Source: a phage
DNA: 49,526 nt
Sequence record: PZ296778.1
Direction: 5' to 3' (one strand)
Shown piece after piece: positions 31,405-46,105 of this stretch (the first letter of the stretch is position 1; each line of letters starts with the position of its first letter). Below the pieces are notes generated by a model, which did not search any database, was not told where the DNA came from, and saw only the letters and a program-made list of their open reading frames with translations. The translations under genes and the position numbers were made by a program.

Positions 31405-32130
31405 ATGGCTAAAGATATTTTAGATAAAGACACACATGACGCATTCGTTAGCTTTGAGCAGTTGGAGAGAGAAACGTTTATAGGAAATGCTCTTGCAACT
31501 GGAGGCCATTACCAGGCAGTAAAGCCAAATCAATATTATAAGGTAAGCGGCAACCGATACGCTGGAAGCACTACGCCGGACGTTGTGCGCGATATGTGGA
31601 GCACACCTCAAGAGATCGTGGAGTGGATGGAATCAGAATTTGGCGAATACGATCTCGACGCGGCAGCAAGCCATGAAAACGCAGTTTGCGAGAAGTTCTA
31701 TAGCAAGGAAACAAACTGCTTAAAGCGTTGGTGGGGTAGCAACAAGCACGTATGGCTTAACCCGCCGTACAGCAACCCAACGCCATTTATCAAGAAAGCA
31801 ATTGAGCAAATGGAGCACAACAACCAAATTGATGTTTTGCTGCCTGCCGACAATTCCACGGCCTGGTTTTATGAGGCGCAGAAAAACGCGGCTGAAATCA
31901 TCTGGATCACTGGAGAAGTTTACGAAGAGGGGGGAGTGGAATATTCCCGCACCGGAAGAATCGCCTTTGTGTCTGGATTGACTGGCGAGCCTGTACAGGG
32001 CAACAATAAGGGAAGCGTGATTTTTGTCATGCGCAAACTTAAAGAAGGCGAGGAGCAGAAAACGCGATACGTTAAGATCAGCGATATTTGCCCCTCTGTA
32101 ACCGAACGCCGCGCGCGCAAACGGAGCTAA
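31405..32130 (+). CDS. DNA N6-adenine methyltransferase (phage Dam-like)
   Basis: NPPY catalytic motif (WLNPPYSN); start at MAKDIL after RBS ggag. Confidence 0.75.
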   Translation: MAKDILDKDTHDAFVSFEQLERETFIGNALATGGHYQAVKPNQYYKVSGNRYAGSTTPDVVRDMWSTPQEIVEWMESEFGEYDLDAAASHENAVCEKFYSKETNCLKRWWGSNKHVWLNPPYSNPTPFIKKAIEQMEHNNQIDVLLPADNSTAWFYEAQKNAAEIIWITGEVYEEGGVEYSRTGRIAFVSGLTGEPVQGNNKGSVIFVMRKLKEGEEQKTRYVKISDICPSVTERRARKRS

Positions 32131-32134
32131 CACG

Positions 32135-32392
32135 ATGAAAAAAGAGAGAAGCGTTTATTTAAATGAAACTGGCGAGTGGTTGTTATTTCGCGCTATGGTG
32201 TGCGATGCACTTGATAAAAACCCTAACGTGAAAAAGATGATTGATTGCGATCCGTGGGAATTTTCAAGCGCATTAGATATGAGCTTTGATGAGACAAGAA
32301 AACTCCCTCTTGAAAAATGGCACGAACAAATCAGAAATGATATGCAAGAGTTTGTAGATTCGTGGAATTTTCAGAACGGAATGATCCACTAA
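32135..32392 (+). CDS. hypothetical protein
   Basis: 85-aa ORF; stop abuts a motif copy. Confidence 0.45.
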   Translation: MKKERSVYLNETGEWLLFRAMVCDALDKNPNVKKMIDCDPWEFSSALDMSFDETRKLPLEKWHEQIRNDMQEFVDSWNFQNGMIH

Positions 32393-32411
32393 TAGCACTT
32401 TTTGTTAAAAC
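32392..32411 (+). promoter_or_regulatory. conserved intergenic motif copy F4
   Basis: Exact 20-mer immediately after stop TAA; followed by a hairpin. Confidence 0.65.
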
Positions 32412-32461
32412 GCCCGGCATTTTGTCGGGAATAATTATTTCATCGAAACGAACGTGAGGAA

Positions 32462-32647
32462 ATGAAAATGGTAGTATATAGCAAGAAAGCATTTGACCAG
32501 GCGCAACAAGCCGCACGAGAGGCGGTAAAAGGTGGAACGAAAAACAATATGCAGCTTGATTGGGGCGCTGCAATGATTCTACTTCGCGTTGCATATGGTC
32601 ACTACCCATTAGAATTTTCGGAGGCATATTATAAGCATGAAGGTTGA
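32462..32647 (+). CDS. hypothetical protein
   Basis: 61-aa ORF with RBS gagg downstream of motif plus hairpin. Confidence 0.4.
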   Translation: MKMVVYSKKAFDQAQQAAREAVKGGTKNNMQLDWGAAMILLRVAYGHYPLEFSEAYYKHEG

Positions 32648-32879
32648 ACAAGGTAGAGAGGCGGTATGGAATCACGCTAAAGAATGCGGAATAGCCGACG
32701 ATATAAAGAAGATCGCGCAATACTTTGATATTGCAGATGTGAGCATAATTAGCGGCGATAAGATGACTTTCCTCAAGGAAAGGCCGCGAAAAATGGTAAG
32801 AGTTCCAGCAGTTCCAACAAAAATTGATTTCAAAGAGGCAATGGCTAAAATCCGAGAGCCTCGCAAATATTATAAATGA
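32637..32879 (+). CDS. hypothetical protein
   Basis: 80-aa ORF overlapping the upstream stop. Confidence 0.4.
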   Translation: MKVEQGREAVWNHAKECGIADDIKKIAQYFDIADVSIISGDKMTFLKERPRKMVRVPAVPTKIDFKEAMAKIREPRKYYK

Positions 32880-32973
32880 GGATAGTTATCATGTGGCGCT
32901 TGTTTGTTCTACCGTTACCCGTTATCATCGCTGTTACAGTTATGTACCATATAGTGATGAGATAGGTGGCAGA

Positions 32974-34089
32974 ATGAAAAATGTAAAAATTACAGATGAG
33001 CAATTCAAGATCGAACGGGCGGCGGGTAAGACATATAAACAGATCGCTCAAGAGTACGGAATGAATGTGAGAAGCGTCGAGCGTCGCGCGGCGCGACTTG
33101 CAAAGCAAGGCCAGGTATCCACCATTGGAGCGCCTGGTTTTGGCGTTCATGGTGAGTCAGTAATGACTGACAAAGAAGGCAACATAATCCTAAAGTGGAC
33201 TAAAACCAGCAAGGATAAAGAGCAATTAGAAGCATTAATGCGCGCAGCAATGGAGGCATTTAGCGAGGAAGTGCCGCGATTAGATCCGGTTCCATTACAG
33301 GAGCGCGACTATAACGAAACGCTTTCCTTGTATCCGATCTTTGACATGCACTTAGGCGCTATGGCCCATAAGCACGAATGCGGCGAAAATTGGGATACTG
33401 CCACGGCAGAGCGCGTTATGAATAACTTTATCGACTATGCTTTAATGTGCGCGCCGGATAGCGAAAAGGCTGTCATCCTGATTGGTGGCGATATGCTGCA
33501 TAGCGACGGCCTGGAGGCGGTTACACCTGCAAGCGGTCACGTACTGGATCAAGATAGTCGATATGCAAAATTGGTTTACGTTGCCATCCGTGCAATGCGA
33601 CGCGCAATCAATAAAATGTTGTTAAAGCATAAACATGTTGAAGTCCAGATCGTAGAGGGCAATCATGACCAATCAGGAATGATTTGGCTGCGCGCAGCAA
33701 TGGCGGCAGCATATGAAAACGAGCCGCGCGTTTACGTTGATGTTTCACCTCGCGTTGTGCACCACACGCAATACGGAAAAACTTTCCTTGCGTACCATCA
33801 CGGGCACACAGTGCGTAAACCGGAGACTTTGCTAATGATGTGCGCGTCAGATTGGCGGGAGGACTTCGGAAACTCAAAAACGATGTATGCGCACGTAGGG
33901 CACTGGCATCACCAGACCGTAACGGAAACGTCGCTTGGCATCGTGGAAGTACATAGCACCCTGGCGGCAAAAGACGCATACGCAGCGCGCGGTGGCTGGC
34001 GATCTCGACGCCGTGCGGCGGTTATCATTTACGACAAAGAGCATGGAGAGGTTGGGCGATTTGTTCACTATCCAGAAATGATGAATTGA
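32974..34089 (+). CDS. HTH-domain metallophosphoesterase (calcineurin-like)
   Basis: Start at MKNVKIT after RBS aggtgg; N-terminal HTH (KTYKQIAQEYGMNVRSVERRAARL); phosphoesterase motifs DMHLG, GGDMLHSDG, GNHDQ, HHGH, GHWHH. Confidence 0.6.
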   Translation: MKNVKITDEQFKIERAAGKTYKQIAQEYGMNVRSVERRAARLAKQGQVSTIGAPGFGVHGESVMTDKEGNIILKWTKTSKDKEQLEALMRAAMEAFSEEVPRLDPVPLQERDYNETLSLYPIFDMHLGAMAHKHECGENWDTATAERVMNNFIDYALMCAPDSEKAVILIGGDMLHSDGLEAVTPASGHVLDQDSRYAKLVYVAIRAMRRAINKMLLKHKHVEVQIVEGNHDQSGMIWLRAAMAAAYENEPRVYVDVSPRVVHHTQYGKTFLAYHHGHTVRKPETLLMMCASDWREDFGNSKTMYAHVGHWHHQTVTETSLGIVEVHSTLAAKDAYAARGGWRSRRRAAVIIYDKEHGEVGRFVHYPEMMN

Positions 34090-34234
34090 TGAATTTTTAT
34101 TTAAATCAATGACAAATTAAATCAAAAACTTGCAAAGGGGCGGCGTTTGTCGCCTCTTTTTTTTGTTTAATTTTTTACCATGTACGTTTATCATGCGGTC
34201 AATATATTGACTTTAATTAATATGGAGAATAAAA

Positions 34235-34450
34235 ATGAAAGATTTTATTAACGCAGCTACCGCTGGATCTGGCGGTTCATCTATCGCAAGCGCCGCTACA
34301 GGGCAGTTAACCATTGCTATTGCCAGCTTTGTTTTAATGGCTGCATTCGGTGCATGGGGCGCTTACCTTCGCTGGCGTGATAGTAAAAAATTCCACGAAG
34401 CGATCGAAAAAGGTGATATTCAAAAAGCTATTGAAATCAGGGGCAAGTAA
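34235..34450 (+). CDS. holin
   Basis: 71 aa; central hydrophobic transmembrane segment; charged C-terminus; immediately upstream of the endolysin with ATGA overlap. Confidence 0.6.
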
Positions 34451-34941
34451 TGAGCATAAAGAACAGGGTAGCGGCTGCGGCCTTTGGCGTTGCGGTTGCC
34501 TTGACTTCTCCACTTCTTGAAGAGATCGAAGGGGTAAGATACAAGCCATACAAAGATATTGCTGGAGTATGGACGGTTTGCGCAGGAATCACCGGACCAG
34601 ATGTTATCCTGGGGAAAACGTACACTAAAAAAGAGTGTGATGCTTTGTTGGCTAAGCATATCCAGGTTGCTAAAAAGGAAGTTGACAAGCAAGTTAAGGT
34701 TGATATTCCTGATAGTATGCGTGCAGCAATGTACTCATTCACTTACAATGCAGGTGTGGGAGCTTTCAGAAATTCAACAATGCTGAAACTCATCAACCAG
34801 GGGAAATTAAACGAGGCTTGCGATCAGCTTTATCGTTGGACTTATTACCATAACCCAAAAACAGGAAAGCGCGAGAAGTCTAAAGGCTTACTTAACAGGC
34901 GCAAGGTCGAATACAAATATTGCACAATGGATCTGAAATGA
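34450..34941 (+). CDS. endolysin (GH24 lysozyme)
   Basis: 163 aa; catalytic-triad spacing E-x8-D-x5-T ([16 protein letters not shown]) as in T4 lysozyme. Confidence 0.85.
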
Positions 34942-35333
34942 TGAAGAATTTTTTACTTACACCAATCGCAATGGCGGTGATCTTGTCTGGATGTTCAAGC
35001 GTTACGCCACTGACCGGATTAATCGGCAGTAAGCCGGAAATCACAGCACAGGCTGGAGCGGAGAACGTGAAGCAGACAGTTGGCATTACAGCAAAGCAGG
35101 ACGCCAGCACAAAACAGGAAACCACAATAAAGGAATCTGCGGTTGACAAGGTGGACACGTCCAGCAAGAAGGATTTCACAACATCAACCATTCAGGCCAA
35201 TACCATCAAGGCAGACAAAATTCAGGTCGTGCAGGGTAATAACGGCAGATGGTACGATCCAGTAATCATATGCGTGGTTGTGTTTCTTGTGCTGATTTGT
35301 CTTTACTGGAGAGAAAAGAAAAAGGAGGCTTAA
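34938..35333 (+). CDS. unimolecular spanin (T1 gp11-like)
   Basis: N-terminal lipoprotein signal with lipobox (ILSGCSS) plus C-terminal transmembrane helix ([16 protein letters not shown]); last gene of the lysis cassette. Confidence 0.65.
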
Positions 35334-35350
35334 TGCCTCCTTTATTTTTA
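35323..35350. terminator. terminator after lysis cassette (likely bidirectional)
   Basis: AGGAGGC-ttaat-GCCTCCT hairpin overlapping the spanin stop, followed by a T-rich run; convergent minus-strand gene ends here. Confidence 0.6.
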
Positions 35351-35572
35351 TGCGTCGGGCCACATATGAGTTTCGTTTGTTGGCTTGTTCGATTCGTCGT
35401 ACTGCCTTACTTCAATGCTGCAAGTGTCGCCGTACATTTCTGCAATCTTGCGCTCATTTTCAACCGCCGATTGCTCACTCCAGCCTGAATCCTTATCGTA
35501 AACTGTCGGAATTTCAGAAGAAGATCCATTTGCATGATTGTATACGCGAACTACTAAAAACTTGCTGGACAT
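35348..35572 (-). CDS. hypothetical protein
   Basis: Start moved to MSSKFLVV after RBS aagga; downstream of motif copy R4. Confidence 0.4.
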   Translation of the reverse strand: MSSKFLVVRVYNHANGSSSEIPTVYDKDSGWSEQSAVENERKIAEMYGDTCSIEVRQYDESNKPTNETHMWPDA

Positions 35573-35633
35573 AATTTTTCCTTTTTGGTTGGTTCGTTTC
35601 GATGAAACAAATATACCCGACACAAGATCGGGA

Positions 35634-35653
35634 GTTTTAACAAAAAATGCTAT
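35634..35653 (-). promoter_or_regulatory. conserved intergenic motif copy R4 (variant)
   Basis: GTTTTAACAAAAAATGCTAT on the + strand; forward-oriented relative to the minus-strand early operon. Confidence 0.55.
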
Positions 35654-35770
35654 TCCATACGCTTTACTGTAACCAATAACACACCATCATCATTGCATAA
35701 AACGTGTTCAGTGGTGCTAAAAGCTCGCATATCTGAATAAAGTAGCGTAAGTAAAGCATGAATAAAATCA

Positions 35771-36166
35771 TCATGTGATATTGAATTTACGGCGCAGTGC
35801 TTCAAGATCTTGTCTATTAGCTTTTGCCTGGAACAATTCATCATCGCCCATCTCCCCTATTCTAGCTATATCCCTGATCCAGTCGTTGCGCATACCATCC
35901 AGGCTATACAATTCGAATCCGAAAGGCCGCTTTGACGATCCTTTGGACCAGTATTTTCCGCATACTCCATCTATATAACCAGCCGTCATCATTCTTGCGC
36001 AAAATTCCTTAGATGCAAGGCTGGCGAACATTCGCGGCGTAAGTCCGGCGGCCCGTGCGAGCCGCTCACATTCTCTATGCTGATAGATAAATTTGGCTAT
36101 GTGCTGCCTGTTAAACCAATCGTATGACTCACACCATTTATACAGATCAAGCAAAAACATAATCAT
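35771..36166 (-). CDS. hypothetical protein
   Basis: 131-aa ORF; start overlaps stop of the upstream P-loop gene (ATGA). Confidence 0.45.
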   Translation of the reverse strand: MIMFLLDLYKWCESYDWFNRQHIAKFIYQHRECERLARAAGLTPRMFASLASKEFCARMMTAGYIDGVCGKYWSKGSSKRPFGFELYSLDGMRNDWIRDIARIGEMGDDELFQAKANRQDLEALRRKFNIT

Positions 36167-37854
36167 CCCAGCAGTATTGGATTGACAAAAATAACACCAT
36201 TAATCACACAAACATAATTTCTTTCTTCCAGCATTGGCAGTAAGTGCCCTTCTATCCTTTTCATTACGCCAGCCTGACCAACGAAAGGTTTTACCTTTCT
36301 CGCTGATTCGTACAGGGCGCGGATATTCAGAATCCCTTTATTAGCCTTGCCGTGCCTCGTGATCAATTCAATCAATTTACCCATTTCAGCATCATCACCA
36401 GCATAACCAGAAGCATTGGCGGCGCTAATGTATGTTTTGCTCAATTCCTGAAACATGATCAACGCCTCTTGCATTGTTTCCACGTCGATCTCTTTCGACT
36501 TCTGCGGGTATCCGGCAGGATTAAACCAGTTACGGATAACATGCAGGACGGAAGCAAGCCTGATCACCTGTTTATCCATTTTACCCAGCGCACCGCGTAA
36601 CATTGTATGAGAATACTTTCCTCCGTCTGCAAGATGCGGTTCCATATCCTGGCGAGCAATGTTGAGCACTCGCATAGCTGAACGGCTTATTTTCAGCGAT
36701 ATATTTGATTCGCTCATGATGTTATGCACCAATTGATAATATTGGGCTTTCAATTCAGAATCCACCGCCTCATAGGTAGAATCACCATTTTCATCAATGA
36801 ATGAGCGACGGCCTAAGAATGATTCCTCGCGGACCAACAAAAAACGCTCACTAACACCGATGCCTCGCGATCCAGCGTCCATGATTCCGCTTATCGTTTC
36901 ATCCTGGGCTATAACGCTCATACATCCAAGCGCGCGAAAACTCATATTATTGTCAGCATTAGCGCGGGCAATTGATACGTGACCATTATCCCACGCCTTA
37001 AGCACTAACTCACTGTTAGTCTTCCTTTCGCTATTTGCATAGGTCAAGCCTAACAGACTGTTAATACTTGTTGCTTCATCAGATATTACGGCAAAGTTAC
37101 CTTGCTTGTTGTTGATTTTCGCCAAGCCTTCTGGAGTTGTATCTGAGACAGGAAAAGTTATATCACACATTTTTTCCAGTTTTTCCTCCAGATCCTCTTT
37201 TTCCTGGTATAGAGATTCCATATCAGCGCCGGATCTTTCGCTTTTCATCTCCTTTGCAAGACCTGCCAGCTTTGCCTGTATTTTCTTTCTTTCCTTGCGG
37301 CGTTGCTCGTTGATCTTCTCAACTTCCGCAATCATCGGAGCAATAGCCATGCTGTTGATCGCAGATTTACCAGTTGACGGCGGCTGGCTTGTAACGACGT
37401 AAAGCGCAGTCGGCTGATCGGTTCCGTGATAGTCAACCGTAAAGCGTCCAAGCATAGCGGCAGAAATGCAGCCGATAAAGTGCATGTAAGCCGATGATTC
37501 AGGGAATTGAACGGATCGCGCAATGCTGCGTGATAACTTGCCGACAACATCAATATCATTACCAAGAGAAATAACGGGGTAGCGATCGTGACCGCTATTC
37601 ACATCCGATTCAGGGAATTGAACGGATCGCGCAATGCTGCGTGATAACTTGCCGACAACATCAATATCATTACCAAGAGAAATAACGGGGTAGCGATCGT
37701 GACCGCTATTCACATCCTTTACGTCGCCCCAAAAGCTGGACGACTGGCGATAGCCGTTAGCCTGAATTGATACGCGAACTGGCGAAAGGTTCTGGCTTTC
37801 AGCCATAGCGATTATTTGTTGTGGAGTTAATTTGTTCGTTTCTAATGAAAACAT
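36163..37854 (-). CDS. P-loop NTPase of unknown function (DUF3987-like?)
   Basis: 563 aa; Walker A-like PSTGKS and Walker B-like FAVISDEAT; N-terminus carries a perfect 37-aa tandem duplication; RBS aaggag. Confidence 0.5.
   Translation of the reverse strand: MFSLETNKLTPQQIIAMAESQNLSPVRVSIQANGYRQSSSFWGDVKDVNSGHDRYPVISLGNDIDVVGKLSRSIARSVQFPESDVNSGHDRYPVISLGNDIDVVGKLSRSIARSVQFPESSAYMHFIGCISAAMLGRFTVDYHGTDQPTALYVVTSQPPSTGKSAINSMAIAPMIAEVEKINEQRRKERKKIQAKLAGLAKEMKSERSGADMESLYQEKEDLEEKLEKMCDITFPVSDTTPEGLAKINNKQGNFAVISDEATSINSLLGLTYANSERKTNSELVLKAWDNGHVSIARANADNNMSFRALGCMSVIAQDETISGIMDAGSRGIGVSERFLLVREESFLGRRSFIDENGDSTYEAVDSELKAQYYQLVHNIMSESNISLKISRSAMRVLNIARQDMEPHLADGGKYSHTMLRGALGKMDKQVIRLASVLHVIRNWFNPAGYPQKSKEIDVETMQEALIMFQELSKTYISAANASGYAGDDAEMGKLIELITRHGKANKGILNIRALYESARKVKPFVGQAGVMKRIEGHLLPMLEERNYVCVINGVIFVNPILLG
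37496..37717 (-). repeat. perfect 111-bp in-frame tandem duplication inside the P-loop gene
   Basis: Two identical adjacent 111-bp units (37496-37606 and 37607-37717) encoding a duplicated 37-aa segment. Confidence 0.85.
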
Positions 37855-37906
37855 TCGTTAGCTTCTCCTTTGTGGGCCGTAAATTTTAACGGCCCAATAC
37901 TACCCC

Positions 37907-37926
37907 GTTTTGTCAAAAAGTGCTAT
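37907..37926 (-). promoter_or_regulatory. conserved intergenic motif copy R5 (variant)
   Basis: GTTTTGTCAAAAAGTGCTAT; followed on the minus strand by hairpin GGGCCGT...ACGGCCC, RBS aaggag and the P-loop gene start. Confidence 0.6.
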
Positions 37927-38144
37927 TTGATCCGCTCTATTGCAACCAGAAGTCGATCAGGCTGGCGGTCGCTGTAGCATTCTCCTGTAATCCCATCCTT
38001 AAACGTAAAGTAAAGCGCCTTATGATATGAAAAACCAATCAGCCAACCTACCGCCGTTTTTTTGATGGGCCTGACTATATCGCCAGGCTTGAAAGTCTTT
38101 GTGGTAGAATGCGTTACTTTGTAACGGTTTTCACTGTTTATCAC
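37923..38144 (-). CDS. hypothetical protein
   Basis: 73-aa ORF whose stop TAG lies within motif copy R5. Confidence 0.4.
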   Translation of the reverse strand: MINSENRYKVTHSTTKTFKPGDIVRPIKKTAVGWLIGFSYHKALYFTFKDGITGECYSDRQPDRLLVAIERIK

Positions 38145-38527
38145 AGATATTTGCCCTCAAACAGATAACAGCCGCCAGCAGAGAATCCGACCTCTTCACG
38201 GTACAGGTTCCAGCGGTCGCCGCACTCATCAAAAACATAACCCGCAACGCTTCCAAGCGGTCGCCCTTTCTCGATCTGGTATCGCTTGCCCTGCTTAAAG
38301 TGCTTTTTGCACGGCATGTTATGATCTACAAACGTGCAAAGAACGGTCTTTGTGTTAATGGCGCGGTAATCATCTCGGTTTGCTGGAAGCCAACGGCTAC
38401 CCTTAACAAGCGTCTTAACCTGGAACTCTTCCACCTCGATCACATCATTACTTCCTGCAATCTTCTGATAAACCGTTTTAAAACGGCCTTTCATCAATAC
38501 GTTGGTTTCATTACAGATAACATTCAT
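38141..38527 (-). CDS. hypothetical protein
   Basis: 128-aa ORF; overlapping start/stop with the downstream gene. Confidence 0.45.
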   Translation of the reverse strand: MNVICNETNVLMKGRFKTVYQKIAGSNDVIEVEEFQVKTLVKGSRWLPANRDDYRAINTKTVLCTFVDHNMPCKKHFKQGKRYQIEKGRPLGSVAGYVFDECGDRWNLYREEVGFSAGGCYLFEGKYL

Positions 38528-38580
38528 GATTAGATCTCCTTTGTTTGTTCGATGTGATTATGCCAGGTTTTTACACCTGG

Positions 38581-38600
38581 CTTTTAACAAAAAGTGCTAT
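38581..38600 (-). promoter_or_regulatory. conserved intergenic motif copy R6
   Basis: CTTTTAACAAAAAGTGCTAT; contains the stop TAG of the methyltransferase gene on the minus strand. Confidence 0.6.
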
Positions 38601-39314
38601 TTTGAGTTTGACTCAAAGACGGCGCGAGCAAAGCCGCGCGGAGTGAGGGAGCGGATCATCTTTGTGCGCGATGACTTGCCGCCAGTTTTGGCCCAGCCTG
38701 GATTATCTTTGTCTTCCTCTTTCGGCAGGATTAAAGCGCGTGGAGGAATAACAAAGCCGTTGCCAGTCCAGAGGCACGTTTTCTTAAAATAGCGATCACG
38801 CGCCGGAATAATATCAGGGAAGTCGGGATGTTTATCATCTTCCGGCAGATAGCCAGCGTAATCGCACGGATGGAACGTATAATCAGGCTTACGCCATAAC
38901 GTTGACAACTTGCCAACCGGATTTTCGATCATGTAAGGAACACCGAAATAATCAGCTATATCAGCCGCGATTCTGCAAGTGTCGGCGGCCTCATCCTGGA
39001 ACGATGGATTCTCAAGGCGTTTTTTGGCCCAATGGCGAGATCCGCTATTTGCAAGGTCGGTGCACGGCGGAAATGCCATAATAAAATCAGGATTGCCCCA
39101 CTCATTATTGATTGCCTTAACATAAAAAGCATCGTCAATCCAGACGTTAACGTATTCGATATTCTCATGCTGTATGCGCACTGACTGGTAATCACCGTGA
39201 TCGCCACCGTCAGCATTAAAGCAAATGCACTTATAGCCATTATCAGCCCAATCTTTAACGGCTTTACCAGATCCATCAAATAGGGAGAATATTAAACCTT
39301 TATACATCGTCATT
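38597..39314 (-). CDS. DNA cytosine-5 methyltransferase (small, putative)
   Basis: Motif I LFDGSG, catalytic PC motif AFPPCTD, ENV-like motif MIENPVG; start at MTMYKG after RBS gagg; stop TAG within motif copy R6. Confidence 0.6.
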
Positions 39315-39317
39315 ACC

Positions 39318-39542
39318 TCAAAACGGAAAACAGCGCGGACAACCAGGATCGAAATCGCATCCACAATCATTAACAATCATAGTGGGATCTGCAAATATTG
39401 CGCTTGATTCAAGATCCATATCCATATCACCTAAAGCCTCATCAAGAGTCTTAATTTTATATGCCACTTCAAGAGCCGCCTCTTTATTTAGTCCGGCATC
39501 TTCTGCCATTTGAAGGCGCTCAAAAAATCCGTCTTGACTCAT
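39318..39542 (-). CDS. acidic Cys-rich small protein
   Basis: 74 aa; highly acidic; C-terminal CGCDFDPGCPRC; immediately upstream of the methyltransferase. Confidence 0.4.
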   Translation of the reverse strand: MSQDGFFERLQMAEDAGLNKEAALEVAYKIKTLDEALGDMDMDLESSAIFADPTMIVNDCGCDFDPGCPRCFPF

Positions 39543-39656
39543 CGCATAATCCCCTTAATAACAGCCAAGATAATAGCCATGCCAGCAGCAGTAACCAAAA
39601 AGCCAACCGCGCCAATAATCGAATAAAAAAAGAAATCAATAGCCTTATCTATCATT
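39540..39656 (-). CDS. small hydrophobic protein (ORF below track threshold)
   Basis: About 38 codons read by eye (MIDKAIDFFFYSIIGAVGFLVTAAGMAIILAVIKGIMR); RBS gaggtg; stop overlaps the next start (ATGA). Coordinates approximate. Confidence 0.3.
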
Positions 39657-39696
39657 TCCACCTCATTTAAAAGGCGGCAAAACGCCGCCATATTAA

Positions 39697-39924
39697 TTAA
39701 AGAGCACGCCAACTTTGAATATAGAAAGCGTTTTCTTCCAGTAATTCTTTTAACTGATCTTTATTGTATTTGCGCACCTTACCGCCTGGATGGATACCAA
39801 TAAGATAGCCGCCTTTGCCCTCGGTGATAGTGATTTGGCTAATTCCACAAGACTTATCAAGTTTTACAGCCACGCGGTGATGAGCGTCAATAGTTGACAT
39901 AATGTTTAAAACTTTTGCTTTCAT
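39697..39924 (-). CDS. hypothetical protein
   Basis: 75-aa ORF followed by a hairpin plus T-run. Confidence 0.4.
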   Translation of the reverse strand: MKAKVLNIMSTIDAHHRVAVKLDKSCGISQITITEGKGGYLIGIHPGGKVRKYNKDQLKELLEENAFYIQSWRAL

Positions 39925-40032
39925 TTAAATATCCTCAATTGAAATATGAATGGCGTCGTGCTCTTTTTCCGTCGCCGCCGTAATGGTCATTTGCAACCGC
40001 TACCATCCAGGCATTTTTGAAAATAAATAGCC

Positions 40033-40245
40033 TCATTTCTTATTTTTCATCTTAAATTTATGGCCTAGAACACCAGCACCAATATAGCCATCGTTGTATT
40101 CCATTAAATAAAGGTGAAGGCCATTATCTGAAATTACATGAGGATCTTCTTTGAGATTTCCCATTAGCGGGTATTCTTTTCCGCGCGTAAATCTCCAAGT
40201 TGAGTCATAAGTTTCTACGCATTTAAGTTTTAATTGCTTTGCCAT
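40033..40245 (-). CDS. hypothetical protein
   Basis: 70-aa ORF; overlapping start/stop with the upstream gene. Confidence 0.4.
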   Translation of the reverse strand: MAKQLKLKCVETYDSTWRFTRGKEYPLMGNLKEDPHVISDNGLHLYLMEYNDGYIGAGVLGHKFKMKNKK

Positions 40246-40442
40246 TAGATGATCTCCATGTATGTTTCAAAGCCATTTAACTTGAACAGGCCGTTTTCAC
40301 ATTTGCGAACGTTCCAAGTTAGCCCTGAGTGGTACGCCTCCATATCATCAAGGTCAATGGTGATTTCAGCACCTTTCTTAAACAAACCTTTTTCGTGAGA
40401 CTTGTCGCGCTTAACAACTTTAACATCAACCTGATTTTCCAT
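40245..40442 (-). CDS. hypothetical protein (first gene of leftward early operon)
   Basis: Start moved to MENQVDV after RBS gagga; the track start at 40565 would read through motif copy R7 and its hairpin. Confidence 0.4.
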   Translation of the reverse strand: MENQVDVKVVKRDKSHEKGLFKKGAEITIDLDDMEAYHSGLTWNVRKCENGLFKLNGFETYMEII

Positions 40443-40496
40443 CTTTAAATCCTCGTTTGTTGTCGATGCGCTTACTATACCAATCAGCAGCGCATC

Positions 40497-40517
40497 GTTT
40501 TTAACAAAAAGTGCTAT
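40497..40517 (-). promoter_or_regulatory. conserved intergenic motif copy R7
   Basis: GTTTTTAACAAAAAGTGCTAT at the head of the leftward early operon; followed on the minus strand by hairpin GATGCGCT...AGCGCATC, RBS and ATG. Confidence 0.6.
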
Positions 40518-40565
40518 TTGACGGTTAGCACCAGGATTGTGATCGAAATAATCAAAAGTAATCAT

Positions 40566-41131
40566 TCGTAATCAAATCGCGTCAAAATGATGATTGCCTT
40601 TGCAAATTTGATGAGAAAAGCAATCACGTTTAATCATTGGTTGCAGGGGAGATAGTGAAACCTTCCCCTCTTGCCTCACTTTTCCGCCTGGCTGTCAGCG
40701 GTTGTTGTCTTTTGTTCACCCCTGTTACCGATTTCAGGCGGCGTGTTTCCGCGCGGTTTTCCGGTGTATCGAAAACGGAAAAAACAAAAAAAATCCTTTA
40801 TAATACATTGAAAATAAAGATTATTTATTTATATATATCTATAATGTTTTCTTTTTGTTCTCACTGTTACAGTGCTTTTTGTTGGGTGTGGTGTTGTTGT
40901 GTGTTGGTATATATGGATAGTTGCGCGCGCGGCGGATTGCATATGTATATATACTTTTTCCGGCGGATTGCGTTAACAGCGTGAACAGAAAAATAACAGC
41001 CCTGAAATCAATAACTTGCGCATGATTTTGTAGTTTTTCGATATTGGTAACGTTTTGAATACAACAAAAACATTGACACGCACCAAATAGCTTTTATAAT
41101 GCGCCAACAGTCAACAACTGGAGGAAAGGAA
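40566..41131. promoter_or_regulatory. AT-rich non-coding control region between divergent early operons
   Basis: About 565 bp; A-tracts shared with 21200-21694, direct repeat CGGCGGATTGC twice, GT-rich tract, consensus promoter at 41073; the track ORF 40637-40984 is judged spurious. Confidence 0.5.
41073..41100 (+). promoter_or_regulatory. consensus sigma70 early promoter for the rightward early gene array
   Basis: -35 TTGACA, 16-bp spacer, -10 TATAAT; A-rich upstream tract; about 30 nt before RBS ggagga and ATG at 41132. Confidence 0.65.
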
Positions 41132-41596
41132 ATGGAACAGAAGACCACTAAGGACTATTGCGATTGGCTTCGCGAACTTGGTCGCCGCCTGGCTAGTGGC
41201 GATATTGAAGAGTATAAAATGTCACTAATTGACCTGGCCGGAATGTTAAGCGGTGACGACTGCTACAAGATCACGCGCAGTTCATCCTACAGCCGGACCA
41301 TTATCAACCGCGTTCCAGAAGTAAGGGCCGCAGGTCGGGTAAGCATCAAGGTAGAGGAAACGGAAGATGATAAATTTTACGTTTTCCGCATGGTCCGCGA
41401 ATCGAAAAGGAAAATCATCACACCCGAAGAATTGCCAGCCATCAAGGCAAGGGCGATCAAAAAGTTTGCCGATCGCATACTGGCAGCAATCCCGAATATC
41501 GTTGACCTGGAAGGGGATAAACTGGCTGGGGCTTGCGAGGGCGTAAGCCGCTACCAGGATATGATCCGCGAAATCATCAAAGAGGAAGAGCAATGA
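41132..41596 (+). CDS. hypothetical protein (first rightward early gene)
   Basis: Start at MEQKTT after RBS ggagga, about 30 nt downstream of a consensus sigma70 promoter. Confidence 0.5.
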   Translation: MEQKTTKDYCDWLRELGRRLASGDIEEYKMSLIDLAGMLSGDDCYKITRSSSYSRTIINRVPEVRAAGRVSIKVEETEDDKFYVFRMVRESKRKIITPEELPAIKARAIKKFADRILAAIPNIVDLEGDKLAGACEGVSRYQDMIREIIKEEEQ

Positions 41597-41865
41597 AAAA
41601 GGCATTAATCAGCGTTTTGGCGGCAATGGCATTCCTGACCGGATGCAAAGAAGATGGCGCGCATGTTGGCAATGTGCAGATGGCTAACCCTGGCGATGAC
41701 TACAGCGTAAGGGAGCTATTCACCGCTGACGGTTGCACCGTTTACCGATTCTATGACGATCGCACTGTTTACTTCACCAACTGCAAGGGCACTACTAGCT
41801 GGGAAGTGTCGAAAAGCAATGGCAAAGGCACGAAGACAGAACATATGACCGTCGAGACAAAATAG
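41593..41865 (+). CDS. lipoprotein
   Basis: Start at MKKALIS (ATGA overlap); signal peptide plus lipobox LTGC; 90 aa; stop TAG is the start of motif copy F5. Confidence 0.55.
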   Translation: MKKALISVLAAMAFLTGCKEDGAHVGNVQMANPGDDYSVRELFTADGCTVYRFYDDRTVYFTNCKGTTSWEVSKSNGKGTKTEHMTVETK

Positions 41866-41881
41866 CACTTTTTGTTAAAAC
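41862..41881 (+). promoter_or_regulatory. conserved intergenic motif copy F5
   Basis: Exact 20-mer; TAG is the lipoprotein stop; followed by hairpin GCCAGGC...GCCTGGC. Confidence 0.65.
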
Positions 41882-41937
41882 GCCAGGCGCAAAGCCTGGC
41901 ATAATAGCCTCATCGAAACGAGATTGAGGAAACAAAA

Positions 41938-42123
41938 ATGGCACGTCGCATCACCAAAGACCTTAAAGTCCTGAACAAAGAAAACGTAGTTAAAATCCTT
42001 GTTATCTGGGGCTACAACGAAGAAACAGCAAAGCAGAAGGTAGAGGCAGGTTATGACCTGGCTGTAAAAGCAATGCCAAACGATGACGCCAAAGGCATTG
42101 CAAACTATGTAGCGTTCTTTTAA
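41938..42123 (+). CDS. hypothetical protein
   Basis: 61-aa ORF preceded by motif, hairpin and RBS gagga. Confidence 0.4.
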   Translation: MARRITKDLKVLNKENVVKILVIWGYNEETAKQKVEAGYDLAVKAMPNDDAKGIANYVAFF

Positions 42124-42138
42124 TTAGCAGGTGAATAG

Positions 42139-42324
42139 ATGAAAACGAAACTAGTCCATAAGTCAGAAATCAAGATCGGCGATACTGTGATTCACAACGG
42201 CGAGCTTAGAACGGTTGGCAAGGAGTCAATAAGCCACGATGAATTTATGGGGATCTTGTTGTTCGGTGACTCTTATCGTCTTGGTTACAAGATGGTTGAG
42301 CTTGTGGAAGAGGTCAAATTCTAA
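42139..42324 (+). CDS. hypothetical protein
   Basis: 61-aa ORF; stop TAA abuts motif copy F6. Confidence 0.4.
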   Translation: MKTKLVHKSEIKIGDTVIHNGELRTVGKESISHDEFMGILLFGDSYRLGYKMVELVEEVKF

Positions 42325-42344
42325 ATAGCACTTTTTGTTAAAAC
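42325..42344 (+). promoter_or_regulatory. conserved intergenic motif copy F6
   Basis: Exact 20-mer immediately after stop TAA. Confidence 0.65.
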
Positions 42345-42422
42345 TCGAAAACGATAACCAGGCATAATAAATCACATAGGGCGGCACGGCGTCGCCCACA
42401 AAACCAATCAGGAGAAAGCACC

Positions 42423-43316
42423 ATGTTAAAACTTGCTGACATTAAATTCCCGATCACCTTCGAATCTCGCGGCATTGGTCATTACATTTTTACCGATGAA
42501 AAAACATGCCATAAGGTTGATATGAATAGCGACAAACTAAGCCCATCAGACATGGAGATTGAACACTTTATTGATGCGCACAATACGCAGTACAACGCAC
42601 TTAAAGACTATGGCTATGCAATGCCAGGATATACCAGCTTCCACTACAAGCCATATAAAGGCCAGGTGTTGCCAGTGCGCTCACCGGAACGCGCAGAGAT
42701 TCCGATGGTCGAGATGAAAACATGCGACTATAAAAAGCTGTGGTGCTTAAGTGTTGACAATATCAAGTATCCGATCACGTTCTACACGGTTGGTAATTCA
42801 ACGATTCGATTCACATCGCGCGACAATGGCGTTTATAGCGATGGTACGAAATCAGAGTTGAAAGTTGATTTCTTTGTCAACGGTCACAATAGATACAATC
42901 CGCACAACGAAAAAGATAAAGTGTATTACGTGGAAGATATTACAAAACACTTATTTGGAGAAACTCCATTCGGCGGCGGTAAGACGTCAATTCAAAAAAT
43001 CATTGGCGATGAGATCCACAAAGCGGCTGCCGAAATGAAAGCGCCTGGAGGCTGGCGTATTGACAAGAGCGCCTTTGCCTATCAAGAAATCGTAACGCAG
43101 GGCGCAATTGAAGATATGCCAGTTGCAGCCACGCTAAAAGGAGTCCGGCTTGATGACGGCACCTGGTATGAAGTAACGGCTACGCCAAAGACGATCGAGA
43201 TTCATGATGACGTTGTTATCCTTCTGCTTCACTACGGCGGCTATAAAAACCGGACGATTGCAGGTGAGATCAGCATTAAGCGCGGAACGATGGTTAAGTG
43301 GAAGGTCAAAGTGTAA
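42423..43316 (+). CDS. hypothetical protein with internal domain duplication
   Basis: 297 aa; two related segments (LADIKFPITFESRGIGHYIFTD / VDNIKYPITFYTVGNSTIRFTS); RBS ggaga. Confidence 0.5.
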   Translation: MLKLADIKFPITFESRGIGHYIFTDEKTCHKVDMNSDKLSPSDMEIEHFIDAHNTQYNALKDYGYAMPGYTSFHYKPYKGQVLPVRSPERAEIPMVEMKTCDYKKLWCLSVDNIKYPITFYTVGNSTIRFTSRDNGVYSDGTKSELKVDFFVNGHNRYNPHNEKDKVYYVEDITKHLFGETPFGGGKTSIQKIIGDEIHKAAAEMKAPGGWRIDKSAFAYQEIVTQGAIEDMPVAATLKGVRLDDGTWYEVTATPKTIEIHDDVVILLLHYGGYKNRTIAGEISIKRGTMVKWKVKV

Positions 43317-43336
43317 ATAGCACGAATTGTTAAAAC
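43317..43336 (+). promoter_or_regulatory. conserved intergenic motif copy F7 (variant)
   Basis: ATAGCACGAATTGTTAAAAC after stop TAA; followed by hairpin GTGGGGCC...GGCCCCAC. Confidence 0.6.
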
Positions 43337-43389
43337 TCAAATGTGGGGCCAGGTATAATGGCCCCACTTTCAACGAAGGAGATAAAACG

Positions 43390-43611
43390 ATGTACATTAA
43401 AAAGAAGATGAAATGCATTTCCGTTAACTATGCTTGCTCTGGCATGTTCAATCCTGGCGAAATCTATACGGCGCAAAAACTGAAATCATCAACCGGATCT
43501 TTTTACGTGAGCAATAGTAAGGGGCATCGCATGTTCCTGAACGGCGGCGAAGGCACTAAGGTTATGGCACACGCTATGGTAATGGCTGAATTTGAGGAAG
43601 TGAAACAATGA
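43390..43611 (+). CDS. hypothetical small protein, paralog A
   Basis: Start at MYIKKK after RBS aaggag; shares FxPGxxY...FYLNG...AEFEE pattern with the next ORF. Confidence 0.45.
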   Translation: MYIKKKMKCISVNYACSGMFNPGEIYTAQKLKSSTGSFYVSNSKGHRMFLNGGEGTKVMAHAMVMAEFEEVKQ

Positions 43612-43853
43612 TCATTGAAAACAATTTTCTTTGCGTTAAGAGCAATAGACCATTCTTCACGCCTGGCAAGGTGTACCAGGGCAAGAAGGACACAAGAGAT
43701 GGTCACTCTTATCATGTTCACTGCAACAACGGATACAAGTTTTACCTTAACGGCGAGAATGGAACAGAGATCGTTGCGTTTGAAAACGTAGTTGCCGAGT
43801 TTGAGCAGATTACAGACGCGGAATTTGAGGAAGTGAAAGATGAAAACAAATAA
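43608..43853 (+). CDS. hypothetical small protein, paralog B
   Basis: 81 aa; ATGA overlap with paralog A. Confidence 0.45.
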   Translation: MIIENNFLCVKSNRPFFTPGKVYQGKKDTRDGHSYHVHCNNGYKFYLNGENGTEIVAFENVVAEFEQITDAEFEEVKDENK

Positions 43854-44061
43854 GCGCGTCAAGCACAGGTTTACTGATAACCACGGCGACGCGATTGATG
43901 TATACAAGTTTGGCGATCGAGTTTTTATTGATGGCACGTTTGAAGGTGGGCGTAGGCCGGATTTTAGGTCGATACTTACCGTTGACCAAGTGCGCAAGCT
44001 GGCAGATAAGTTAAATGATCTGGCAGATGAAATAGAATACAAGCAAATCCATTTTAATTGA
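43840..44061 (+). CDS. hypothetical protein
   Basis: 73-aa ORF overlapping the upstream stop. Confidence 0.4.
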   Translation: MKTNKRVKHRFTDNHGDAIDVYKFGDRVFIDGTFEGGRRPDFRSILTVDQVRKLADKLNDLADEIEYKQIHFN

Positions 44062-44072
44062 TAGGTTTTATA

Positions 44073-44612
44073 ATGAAAAAATACACTTTCGAACTATGGG
44101 GCAAGAAGTACGAATTAATCACCAGCAAGCCGATTGTTATCGTTGACCTGGACGGCACACTATCGGACGGATCGCATCGTTTGCATTTGCTGCCAACTGA
44201 AAACTTGCACCTTACGGAATCGTGGAGCGAATTTAACAGGGCCGCCGCCGGAGATTCACCGATTAAAAGCACGATCGCGGTTATTAACGGTTTGTGGGTG
44301 TCGGGATTTGCCATCGTCATCTTGACCGGACGCAGCGACGAGGTGCGCTATGAAACCTGCAAATGGTTGAATGAGAGCGGCGTGAAGTTTGACGAAATCA
44401 TCATGCGCCGCCAGGAGGACAACCGAAAGGATACGGTTATTAAAGAAGAAGCCTTGCGCGCTATTGGCCTGGAAAATATTGTTTGCGCCTTTGACGATTC
44501 GCCGAACGTTGTTAAGCACTTCCGCAGCCTGGGAATCACAACCTATCAGGTCACGGAATACGACAAGCCGCACGCTCACCTGCAATCTCACGGCGTGGAG
44601 TGTTTAAAATGA
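44073..44612 (+). CDS. HAD-superfamily phosphatase (polynucleotide 3'-phosphatase / nucleotidase-like)
   Basis: HAD motif I VDLDGTL, motif II VILTGR, motif IV AFDDSPNVV; start at MKKYTF (track start is TTG). Confidence 0.55.
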   Translation: MKKYTFELWGKKYELITSKPIVIVDLDGTLSDGSHRLHLLPTENLHLTESWSEFNRAAAGDSPIKSTIAVINGLWVSGFAIVILTGRSDEVRYETCKWLNESGVKFDEIIMRRQEDNRKDTVIKEEALRAIGLENIVCAFDDSPNVVKHFRSLGITTYQVTEYDKPHAHLQSHGVECLK

Positions 44613-44770
44613 CTTGGTTGCTTTTAATCTTTGTCACAAGTTACAACTCCGCAGCTATTGAGTCGCAGGAGTTCCACGGCGAATCAAGATGCCAGGAAGC
44701 GCGAAAGCAAGTTGTTCTCCACATGTCAGATAGTGGGAAGGATGTAACAGCGTTATGCGTTCGTAAATAG
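44609..44770 (+). CDS. small membrane protein (ORF below track threshold)
   Basis: About 53 codons read by eye (MTWLLLIFVTSYNSAAIES...); ATGA overlap with HAD gene stop; stop TAG is part of motif copy F8. Coordinates approximate. Confidence 0.3.
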   Translation: MTWLLLIFVTSYNSAAIESQEFHGESRCQEARKQVVLHMSDSGKDVTALCVRK

Positions 44771-44787
44771 CACTTTTTGCAAAAAAC
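44767..44787 (+). promoter_or_regulatory. conserved intergenic motif copy F8 (variant)
   Basis: ATAGCACTTTTTGCAAAAAAC; followed by hairpin GGGCTT...AAGCCC and RBS. Confidence 0.55.
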
Positions 44788-44842
44788 AGATCATCGGGCT
44801 TGCTGTATAGTAAGCCCATCAACAACAAACGAGGATTAAATC

Positions 44843-45106
44843 ATGGCTAACAAGATCGAGTTTTTTAAAGCTGTAGACATTATCGACGGCGCGCCTAGCT
44901 TCTTTGCTATCCATTCTATTGACGGCAATGATATTGGGTACAACGTTATCCGTCGAGATGGAATATCAAAAATTAGTGACCTGGTAGGCCATATTGTGTC
45001 AAACGGGAAATGCGCATGGCCCGATTCGCCACGAGAGCCGCGCCGCCGCGACATGGTAGAGCCTGTTCTGCTTTACACTCTGGTAGTAGAGGGAGAAAAT
45101 AAATGA
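44843..45106 (+). CDS. hypothetical protein
   Basis: 87-aa ORF preceded by motif, hairpin and RBS gagga. Confidence 0.4.
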   Translation: MANKIEFFKAVDIIDGAPSFFAIHSIDGNDIGYNVIRRDGISKISDLVGHIVSNGKCAWPDSPREPRRRDMVEPVLLYTLVVEGENK

Positions 45107-45288
45107 TTTTGTTACTTGCTTTTTTGGTTGTTTTTCTTTACATTTCAGGCTTATTCACGTTCCGCGCGTTTGTGAAATATTCTGGCACGACAGACAAGGA
45201 CGATAAAATCGTTCTCGCTTTCTGGTTTGTTTGGGTGTGGTTAGCAATTTACGAGATCATCAGAGACAAACAGAAATTTGAGTGGTGA
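45103..45288 (+). CDS. small membrane protein (two predicted TM helices)
   Basis: 61 aa; two hydrophobic segments; ATGA overlap with upstream gene. Confidence 0.4.
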   Translation: MILLLAFLVVFLYISGLFTFRAFVKYSGTTDKDDKIVLAFWFVWVWLAIYEIIRDKQKFEW

Positions 45289-45347
45289 TTCTTGCTATGG
45301 CGCATTCATGCAGTGCGCCATGTTGAGAAAACCTAAAGGGGGAGACG

Positions 45348-45497
45348 ATGCGTAACTTTGAAAAAATCATTACCAAAAAGAAGCGTCGCGGGTACGATGA
45401 GCATGTGGAGCTTGTGAAAAAGCAACGCAAGAAGCGCAACGAAGACAAGAAGCGCGGGAAAAAATTTAATGCGATTTTTCGCTATGGAGATCATTAA
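45348..45497 (+). CDS. small basic protein (ORF below track threshold)
   Basis: About 49 codons read by eye (MRNFEKIITKKKRRGYDEHVELVKKQRKKRNEDKKRGKKF...); RBS aaagggggag; ends just before the kinase start. Coordinates approximate. Confidence 0.35.
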   Translation: MRNFEKIITKKKRRGYDEHVELVKKQRKKRNEDKKRGKKFNAIFRYGDH

Positions 45498-45499
45498 TC

Positions 45500-46090
45500 A
45501 TGAAACGAGACATTATCATCCTTAATGGGCCGCCAGGTTGCGGGAAGGACACTATTGCAGCTTACCTAACGGGCCATCGTTACCCAGCGGTTAAGGCGTC
45601 ATTCAAACAGCCGATGTTCGATATTGCGTTTTCCATGCTTGGCCCGACTCGATATGATGAGTTTATTGACCTGTACAACGACCGAGATCAAAAAGAAAAG
45701 CCTCAAGTTATCTTAGGCGGCAAGTCACCTCGACAATTCATGATCTGGATTAGCGAGGATGTAATGAAGCCAGTCTTTGGGGATCACTATTTCGGGCGTC
45801 GAATGGTTGAAGAGATTCACGAGATGTACCGAGATTTAGCGGTTGTGATCAGCGATGGAGGATTCCCCGAAGAAGTCAAGCCGCTTGTTAAGGCAGGGCA
45901 TGAGGTGCATATTTGCCGATTGCATCGCGACGGCTTCACGTTTGCTGGCGATTCGAGAGACTACATTGACCTGAGCGGTTATCACTATCGAATCCATCAC
46001 TATGACTTCCACTTGCAGGACGGCAAGCCGGAACTGGCTGTAAGCGAGATCGTCAATGCAGTCAAATGGAAGCACACACAGATTAAATAG
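45500..46090 (+). CDS. P-loop kinase, dNMP-kinase-like
   Basis: 196 aa; Walker A GPPGCGKDT with GKDT as in T4-type dNMP kinases; stop TAG is part of motif copy F9. Confidence 0.5.
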   Translation: MKRDIIILNGPPGCGKDTIAAYLTGHRYPAVKASFKQPMFDIAFSMLGPTRYDEFIDLYNDRDQKEKPQVILGGKSPRQFMIWISEDVMKPVFGDHYFGRRMVEEIHEMYRDLAVVISDGGFPEEVKPLVKAGHEVHICRLHRDGFTFAGDSRDYIDLSGYHYRIHHYDFHLQDGKPELAVSEIVNAVKWKHTQIK

Positions 46091-46105
46091 CACGAATTGC
46101 TAAAC
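46087..46105 (+). promoter_or_regulatory. conserved intergenic motif copy F9 (variant)
   Basis: ATAGCACGAATTGCTAAAC; its TAG is the kinase stop codon. Confidence 0.55.

What the first reader, a model, noticed from the sequence alone, without database searches (positions are those of the whole stretch)
38597..39542. Small cytosine-5 methyltransferase preceded by an acidic Cys-rich protein, in addition to a Dam-like adenine methyltransferase
The roughly 238-aa protein carries motif I (LFDGSG), the catalytic PC motif (FPPCT) and an ENV-like motif (ENPVG), but is much shorter than typical C5 methyltransferases, so its target-recognition domain must be minimal. Together with the Dam-like enzyme at 31405-32130 the phage would methylate both adenine and cytosine. 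The 74-aa protein directly upstream is strongly acidic with a C-terminal CxC...CxxC cluster; it could be a zinc-binding partner or a DNA-mimic-type anti-restriction protein.
Basis: partly seen in the sequence, partly recalled or inferred. Interest (0 to 1): 0.55.

Follow-up and report, generated by a model that had tools for sequence, protein, structure and literature searches.

The report
Known phage Dcm-like cytosine methyltransferase
This T1-like coliphage carries a small cytosine-5 DNA methyltransferase from a family that is already annotated and experimentally studied (it triggers retron Ec86/Eco1), next to an uncharacterised acidic four-cysteine mini-protein that is probably a syntenic neighbour rather than an obligate partner.

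Summary
It has motif I (LFDGSG), PC (FPPCT) and ENV-like (ENPVG) motifs. A 74-aa acidic protein with four cysteines lies just upstream (39318..39542). A T1-type Dam lies at 31378..32130.

The genome avoids palindromes strongly but keeps GATC and CCWGG. That fits self-protection by the two enzymes.

The 74-aa protein belongs to a narrow, unannotated family with four near-invariant cysteines (three strictly) and an invariant C-terminal PF. It is probably zinc-binding. Each gene occurs without the other, so an obligate partnership is not supported.

Verdict: already known; low interest.

The parts
38597..39307 (-). Dcm-like orphan DNA cytosine-5 methyltransferase, 236 aa. Some database records call a 257-aa form from 39370.
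39316..39320 (-). TGA stop of the 74-aa gene (39320..39318) overlapping the GAGG ribosome-binding site (39319..39316) of the methyltransferase gene
   Evidence: Sequence. The same arrangement occurs in Bas06. Two K42 retron escapers carry a C-to-A change 9 bp upstream of the dcm start. On the coding strand of the Bas06 sequence that position is the first G of GG in GAGG (inference).
39318..39542 (-). 74-aa acidic protein (net charge about -11) with three predicted N-terminal helices, an ALGxMDMD motif and a C-terminal CxC-x5-CxxC-x-PF tail. Probably zinc-binding; function unknown.
   Evidence: ORF. phrog_9323, unknown function, 3.8e-37. No Pfam, NCBIfam or PDB match. Invariant C62 C68 C71 P73 F74, with C60 near-invariant. 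AF2 pLDDT 62.8.
39539..39655 (-). 38-aa hydrophobic mini-ORF (MIDKAIDFFFYSIIGAVGFLVTAAGMAIILAVIKGIMR) that overlaps the start of the 74-aa gene by 4 nt
   Evidence: Inner ATG of the ORF listed. The equivalent 117-bp CDS is annotated in FritzSarasin (bas04_0051) and KarlJaspers (bas06_0057). No PHROG hit.
39673..39689 (-). Terminator-like GC hairpin followed by TTTT. It lies upstream of the mini-ORF / 74-aa / methyltransferase block and may mark a transcript boundary.
   Evidence: Consensus scan. Pattern match only.
31378..32130 (+). T1-type Dam N6-adenine DNA methyltransferase, the phage's second methyltransferase
   Evidence: PF05869 at E 1.5e-61. The Bas06 orthologue is annotated Dam-like.

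Best explanation
The 236-aa protein is an active, stand-alone (orphan) SAM-dependent DNA cytosine-5 methyltransferase of the 'Dcm-like' family, which is common in Drexlerviridae and several other enterobacterial phage groups.

Mechanism, established for the class and inferred for this protein: the target cytosine is flipped out. Cys82 of the PC motif attacks C6. Glu128 of the ENV-like motif protonates N3. The methyl group is transferred from SAM, which is bound by the FDGSG loop.

The segment that recognises DNA is short and highly conserved across the family (about residues 146-212, including K175/K176). This suggests a single shared target, most likely CCWGG.

Together with the phage Dam (GATC), it pre-methylates progeny DNA against restriction enzymes that cut those sites. 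As a side effect it methylates the CCTGG-containing stem-loop of retron Ec86/Eco1 msDNA, so the phage is predicted to be sensed by that defence.

The upstream 74-aa acidic protein sits in the same tightly packed minus-strand gene block and is presumably co-transcribed. It is most likely a small zinc-binding accessory protein with its own function, possibly inhibition of a host protein. It is not an obligatory subunit of the methyltransferase.
For: - Identity of the phage: about 99% nucleotide identity to Warwickvirus phages.
- Family: phrog_757 at 1e-85. 2059 homologues, all about 225-260 aa. About 2100 clusters in the representative library. Present in 1499 of 50,697 phage records.
- Catalytic motifs are invariant.
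- Orthology to a studied enzyme: 90% identity over 236 aa with no gaps to Bas06 Dcm-like.
- Experiments on K42, whose genome is 95.4% identical to Bas06. Its 711-bp dcm raises 5mC on Ec86 msDNA by LC-MS. Activity is lost in the C82A/E128A/K175A/K176A mutant. It is toxic only when Ec86 is present. Defence needs the CCTGG in the msDNA. All four residues are present here.
- Later papers cite the published form, Cell Rep 2024;43:114857.
- Site statistics: 23 of 64 hexamer palindromes are absent, against 30 of 4032 non-palindromic hexamers. CCSGG has 2 sites against 55 (zero-order) or 20.6 (Markov) expected. CCWGG (129 sites) and GATC (300 sites) are not depleted.
- 74-aa protein: found directly upstream of the methyltransferase in 36 of 80 IMG/VR loci. 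Cysteine and PF conservation as above.
Against: - No Pfam PF00145 or NCBIfam hit at E up to 1. Sequence and profile searches of the PDB stay non-significant (E 0.15-0.6). Superfamily membership therefore rests on fold, motifs and literature.
- The CCWGG specificity was assumed by analogy in the K42 work. The experiments were done in MG1655, which is dcm+ (my own knowledge), yet msDNA from the empty-vector control had little 5mC. The exact target base or site is therefore not rigorously established.
- CCWGG is not over-represented once tetranucleotide bias is accounted for (O/E 1.07). The site statistics show lack of avoidance, not proof of specificity.
- Nothing was measured for this particular phage.
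- For the 74-aa protein there is no functional evidence at all.
Confidence: 0.85

Rival explanations
1. The 74-aa acidic four-cysteine protein is a functional partner of the methyltransferase. It could be a zinc-dependent regulator or targeting subunit, or a shield against the retron sensing that Dcm provokes.
For: - The two genes are tightly packed. The stop codon overlaps the methyltransferase ribosome-binding site.
- Adjacency persists down to 35-50% identity of the small protein and 41-49% identity of the methyltransferase.
- One homologue (P0113, locus L086) carries a CGC-x5-C-x2-C-x-PF tail fused to the methyltransferase C-terminus and lacks the separate small gene.
Against: - K42 Dcm alone methylates msDNA and triggers Ec86.
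- 44 of 80 methyltransferase loci, including Jersey-like, Dhillonvirus-like and larger phages, have unrelated genes upstream.
- Locus L096 has the small protein but no methyltransferase.
- The fusion is a singleton from one short Logan contig. It was not found in IMG/VR or among the other 365 fetched proteins.
- Adjacency within one virus family can be plain synteny.
Confidence: 0.15
2. The 74-aa protein is a DNA-mimic anti-restriction protein of the Ocr/ArdA type.
For: It has a net charge of about -11 in 74 residues. It sits in an accessory gene block beside the modification enzyme.
Against: - No similarity to any solved structure or curated family.
- The AF2 model is poor (pLDDT 62.8), with only three short helices.
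- The conserved features are a cysteine cluster and a C-terminal PF, not a patterned acidic surface.
Confidence: 0.07
3. The enzyme transfers something other than a methyl group (for example carboxymethyl from Cx-SAM), or it targets a site other than CCWGG.
For: - The K42 study did not map specificity directly, and it used a dcm+ host (plus my own knowledge of MG1655).
Against: - LC-MS detected 5mC that depended on the catalytic residues.
- Mutating either C of the msDNA CCTGG abolished defence.
- CCWGG escapes the genome's palindrome avoidance.
Confidence: 0.12

Closest known systems
Phage K42 / BASEL Bas06 (KarlJaspers) Dcm, the 'Dcm-like C5 cytosine methyltransferase' that triggers retron Ec86 (Eco1)
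   Same: Same length (236 aa; 711-bp gene). 90% identity with no gaps to the Bas06 protein. Same C82/E128/K175/K176. Same gene neighbourhood, including the 74-aa upstream gene (85% identical) and the stop/ribosome-binding-site overlap.
   Different: Different genus (Warwickvirus against Hanrivervirus), with 24 substitutions. Nothing was measured for this phage.
DNMT3A/DNMT3B catalytic domains (eukaryotic de novo C5 methyltransferases)
   Different: Only 14-18% identity. The phage protein has no regulatory domains. No oligomerisation partner is known. Its target is presumably CCWGG, not CpG.
Classical bacterial type II C5 methyltransferases (M.HhaI, M.HaeIII, E. coli Dcm; Pfam PF00145)
   Different: About 90-240 residues shorter. 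No PF00145 hit at E up to 1. No large variable recognition domain. Orphan: no restriction-enzyme family was found in the flanking genes that were screened.
Phage T1 Dam (Pfam PF05869)
   Same: It is the phage's second methyltransferase (31378..32130), with a strong family match.
   Different: An N6-adenine enzyme of an unrelated subfamily. It is not part of the 38.6-39.5 kb locus.

Membership tests
DNA cytosine-5 methyltransferase superfamily | Class I SAM-methyltransferase fold with C5-methyltransferase topology | tested here: met
DNA cytosine-5 methyltransferase superfamily | Motif I F-x-G-x-G (SAM binding) | tested here: met
   F10-D-G-S-G14. D-G-S-G is invariant in 33 homologues. It aligns to motif I of DNMT3B.
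DNA cytosine-5 methyltransferase superfamily | Motif IV P-C with the catalytic cysteine | tested here: met
   P81-C82 is invariant and aligns with the DNMT3B PC motif. The K42 mutant that includes C82A is inactive.
DNA cytosine-5 methyltransferase superfamily | Motif VI E-N-V (glutamate that contacts the cytosine) | tested here: met
   E128-N-P is invariant, followed by V or I. E128 is one of the four residues changed in the inactive K42 mutant.
DNA cytosine-5 methyltransferase superfamily | Match to the curated family model (Pfam PF00145 or an NCBIfam model) | tested here: not met
   No Pfam or NCBIfam hit at E up to 1. None of the 120 listed homologues (of 2059) carries a precomputed Pfam domain. 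The family is a divergent branch that the models miss.
DNA cytosine-5 methyltransferase superfamily | Produces 5-methylcytosine in DNA | not testable with these tools
   Shown by LC-MS for the phage K42 enzyme; the window protein is 90% identical to the counterpart in Bas06, whose genome is 95.4% identical to K42. Not measured for this phage.
Drexlerviridae 'Dcm-like' retron-Ec86 trigger family (K42/Bas06 Dcm; phrog_757) | Full-length collinear homology to the characterised protein | tested here: met
   212 of 236 residues identical with 0 gaps to bas06_0055. phrog_757 at 1e-85.
Drexlerviridae 'Dcm-like' retron-Ec86 trigger family (K42/Bas06 Dcm; phrog_757) | CCWGG specificity and activation of retron Ec86 | not testable with these tools
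   Indirect only. CCWGG (129 sites) escapes the otherwise strong palindrome avoidance. The literature evidence is genetic.
Zinc-binding mini-protein (74-aa ORF) | Four conserved metal-ligand residues in a knuckle-like or ribbon-like spacing | tested here: inconclusive
   C62, C68 and C71 are invariant and C60 is at least 90% conserved in 27 sequences down to 34% identity. Spacing is CxC-x5/6-CxxC. The model is low-confidence there. No family or structure match. Metal binding was not measured.
DNA-mimic anti-restriction proteins (Ocr, ArdA) | Homology or fold similarity to a known mimic | tested here: not met
   No Pfam, NCBIfam or PDB sequence match. The model was too poor for a fold search.

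The most novel reading that the evidence does not exclude
The acidic four-cysteine mini-protein is functionally coupled to the Dcm-like methyltransferase. It could be a zinc-dependent module that docks on the enzyme, as hinted by the single homologue in which the same CGC-x5-C-x2-C-x-PF tail is fused to the methyltransferase C-terminus. It could tune the enzyme's activity or specificity, or blunt the retron Eco1 sensing that Dcm provokes. If so, it would be a new kind of small accessory or anti-defence factor for an orphan phage methyltransferase.
Probability: 0.12. Interest if true: 0.55.

Novelty: already known. Interest (0 to 1): 0.2.

Why it matters
The locus adds little that is new. The gene is a close orthologue of a published phage enzyme.

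It does allow three predictions:
- This phage's DNA should carry both m6A (GATC) and 5mC (probably CCWGG).
- It should resist restriction enzymes that cut those sites when they are unmethylated.
- It should be sensed by retron Ec86/Eco1.

Two loose ends have modest value. First, the family is invisible to Pfam and NCBIfam although it occurs in about 3% of phage records, so pipelines that rely on those models will leave it unnamed. Second, its true sequence specificity has never been mapped directly, and the conserved four-cysteine neighbour has no known function.

Tried and rejected
- Pfam and NCBIfam scans of both proteins gave nothing at E up to 1.
- Single-sequence and profile searches of PDB sequences gave only sub-threshold hits, though these were restricted to C5 methyltransferases (E 0.15-0.6).
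- The 74-aa profile had no PDB match.
- AlphaFold of the 74-aa protein with 27 homologues gave pLDDT 62.8. I did not run a fold search on it because the matches would be meaningless.
- I looked for more methyltransferase/Cys-tail fusions like P0113. There were none among 366 fetched proteins, and none in IMG/VR relatives of P0113.
- CCWGG looked 2.5-fold over-represented against dinucleotide shuffles. This disappears under a maximal-order Markov model (O/E 1.07). I therefore claim only absence of avoidance.
- The published Cell Reports version of the Ec86 paper is not held, so I used the preprint. A literature search for T1-like Dcm restriction experiments found nothing.
- I rejected the 257-259-aa and 238-aa starts in favour of 236 aa. 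The reasons are ribosome-binding-site spacing, the conserved family N-termini and the Bas06 frame.

Full report
**What is there.** The minus strand between 38597 and 39542 holds two closely packed ORFs. The downstream one ends at 38597. The 236-aa start is the better one. A GAGG ribosome-binding site at 39319..39316 lies 8 nt before it and only 2 nt before the other ATG. Family N-termini begin at this point. In phage KarlJaspers only the MYKG start is in frame. The upstream ORF (39318..39542) encodes 74 residues with 16 acidic and 5 basic residues. Its tail reads DCGCDFDPGCPRCFPF. Its TGA stop overlaps the ribosome-binding site of the methyltransferase gene. A 38-aa hydrophobic mini-ORF (39539..39655) overlaps its start by 4 nt, as annotated in relatives. 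A terminator-like hairpin at 39673..39689 precedes the block.

**Which phage.** The region is 98-99.7% identical to Warwickvirus phages (Drexlerviridae, Tempevirinae) such as orkinos, tuinn, swan01 and BASEL Bas04 FritzSarasin. In those records the gene is already labelled 'dcm', 'DNA-cytosine methylase' or 'Dcm-like C5 cytosine methyltransferase'.

**It is already characterised.** A preprint on retron Ec86 (10.1101/2023.08.16.553469) was later published as Wang et al., Cell Rep 2024;43:114857 (cited). The authors isolated escape mutants of phage K42, which is 95.4% identical to BASEL Bas06 KarlJaspers. All four escapers had lesions in or just upstream of a 711-bp dcm gene. Expressing Dcm alone was toxic only in cells carrying Ec86. 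It raised 5mC on msDNA by LC-MS. A C82A/E128A/K175A/K176A mutant was inert. Changing the CCTGG in the msDNA stem-loop abolished defence. Of 35 Ec86-sensitive phages, 34 encoded Dcm. I located the Bas06 gene (MZ501090 40087..40797, 711 bp). The window protein is 212/236 identical to it with no gaps, and C82, E128, K175 and K176 are all in place. Later papers treat 'phage Dcm methylates msDNA and activates Eco1 filaments' as established. The BASEL paper had already noted that N6-adenine and C5-cytosine methyltransferases are abundant in Drexlerviridae, without a simple link to restriction resistance. The family is also widespread. tblastn finds it in 1499 of 50,697 phage records, including Klebsiella weberviruses, Dhillonvirus, Jersey-like and rV5-like phages. 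About 2100 clusters at 50% identity match the profile.

**Specificity.** The K42 work assumed CCWGG by analogy with E. coli Dcm and supported it genetically. It did not map sites. MG1655 is itself dcm+ (my own knowledge), yet control msDNA carried little 5mC. The exact target therefore deserves a direct test. The window offers indirect support. The genome shows strong palindrome avoidance: 23 of 64 hexamer palindromes are absent, against 30 of 4032 non-palindromic hexamers. CCSGG has 2 sites against 55 (zero-order) or 20.6 (Markov) expected. GGWCC has 12 against 68. In contrast, CCWGG (129 sites) and GATC (300 sites) are not depleted. That is the pattern expected if the phage's own Dcm-like and Dam enzymes protect exactly those two sites. 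It could also simply reflect hosts that methylate them. The apparent 2.5-fold excess of CCWGG over dinucleotide shuffles vanishes under a Markov model (O/E 1.07), so I claim only lack of avoidance.

**The 74-aa protein.** It belongs to phrog_9323 (unknown function). It has no Pfam, NCBIfam or PDB relative. Single-sequence and profile searches found only 97 and 199 clusters, all 73-84 aa and unannotated. Conservation is distinctive. C62, C68, C71 and the terminal P-F are invariant, C60 is at least 90% conserved, and an AGL...ALGxMDMD helical segment is kept down to 34% identity. AlphaFold predicts three short N-terminal helices and an unstructured Cys tail at low confidence (pLDDT 62.8). This would be expected if folding needs a metal. 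Zinc binding is therefore plausible but unproven.

**Is the small protein a partner of the methyltransferase?**
- For: it lies directly upstream in 36 of 80 IMG/VR loci and in distant Logan contigs where the methyltransferase is only 41-49% identical. One homologue (P0113) has a matching CGC-x5-C-x2-C-x-PF tail fused to the methyltransferase C-terminus and lacks the separate gene.
- Against: Dcm works alone. The other 44 loci have unrelated upstream genes. One contig keeps the small protein and the downstream neighbours but has a 66-aa ORF in place of the methyltransferase. The fusion is a singleton.

I conclude that the adjacency is mostly Drexlerviridae synteny. I rate a functional coupling at roughly 0.12-0.15 and a DNA-mimic role lower still.

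**Verdict.** The Dam is the classical T1 type. What remains open is the unmapped specificity and the function of the four-cysteine mini-protein. Both are modest questions. Novelty: already known. Interest: 0.2.

Noticed in passing
whole window (1..49526): Very strong palindrome avoidance. 23 of 64 hexamer palindromes are absent (for example AAGCTT, GGATCC, GATATC, CAGCTG), against 30 of 4032 non-palindromic hexamers. CCSGG has 2 sites against 55 (zero-order) or 20.6 (Markov) expected, and GGWCC has 12 against 68. GATC (300 sites) and CCWGG (129 sites) are spared.
   Followed up: partly
window 37496..37717 (inside the minus-strand gene 36163..37854): A perfect 111-bp tandem duplication (2.0 copies, 100% match) lies in frame within the DUF3987 putative helicase gene. 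It repeats 37 aa (DVNSGHDRYPVISLGNDIDVVGKLSRSIARSVQFPES) and makes the protein 563 aa, against 526-527 aa in swan01, FritzSarasin and KarlJaspers. It could be a recent duplication or an assembly artefact.
   Followed up: partly
window 40245..40565 (-): The 106-aa protein matches Pfam PF25180, 'Phage antiviral trigger protein Gp54', at E 7.4e-38. This small accessory-gene block therefore holds a second annotated defence-system trigger.
   Followed up: no
L086:4001-4738 (Logan SRR33913824 contig, protein P0113): This methyltransferase homologue has a C-terminal extension...GDYLCGCGVDESCDDCTPF. It matches the CGC-x5-C-x2-C-x-PF tail of the 74-aa family, and the contig has no separate 74-aa gene upstream. 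It is a singleton in all data examined.
   Followed up: yes
L096:2501-2933 (Logan SRR17509925 contig): A member of the 74-aa Cys family is followed by a 66-aa ORF instead of the methyltransferase, then by homologues of the window's 128-aa and 73-aa proteins and the helicase. The small protein can therefore exist without the methyltransferase.
   Followed up: yes
window 38597..39376 versus database records: Start-codon annotation of this gene is inconsistent between records. It is 774 bp (257 aa, overlapping the 74-aa gene) in swan01 and FritzSarasin, and 711 bp in KarlJaspers. Some records label neighbouring small ORFs 'putative cytosine DNA methylase', 'polyribonucleotide nucleotidyltransferase' or 'TamB', which look like annotation spill-over.
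   Followed up: partly
phage database hits (for example MG065643.1, 'Campylobacter phage E6', 49,946 bp): About 15-39 records named 'Campylobacter phage', with host C. jejuni, carry this T1-like methyltransferase region at up to 80-90% nucleotide identity to a coliphage. The host assignments are surprising and may be mislabelled or contaminant isolates.
   Followed up: no
window 30905..31324 (+): A VRR-NUC domain nuclease gene (PF08774, E 2.2e-10) lies immediately upstream of the Dam gene.
   Followed up: no
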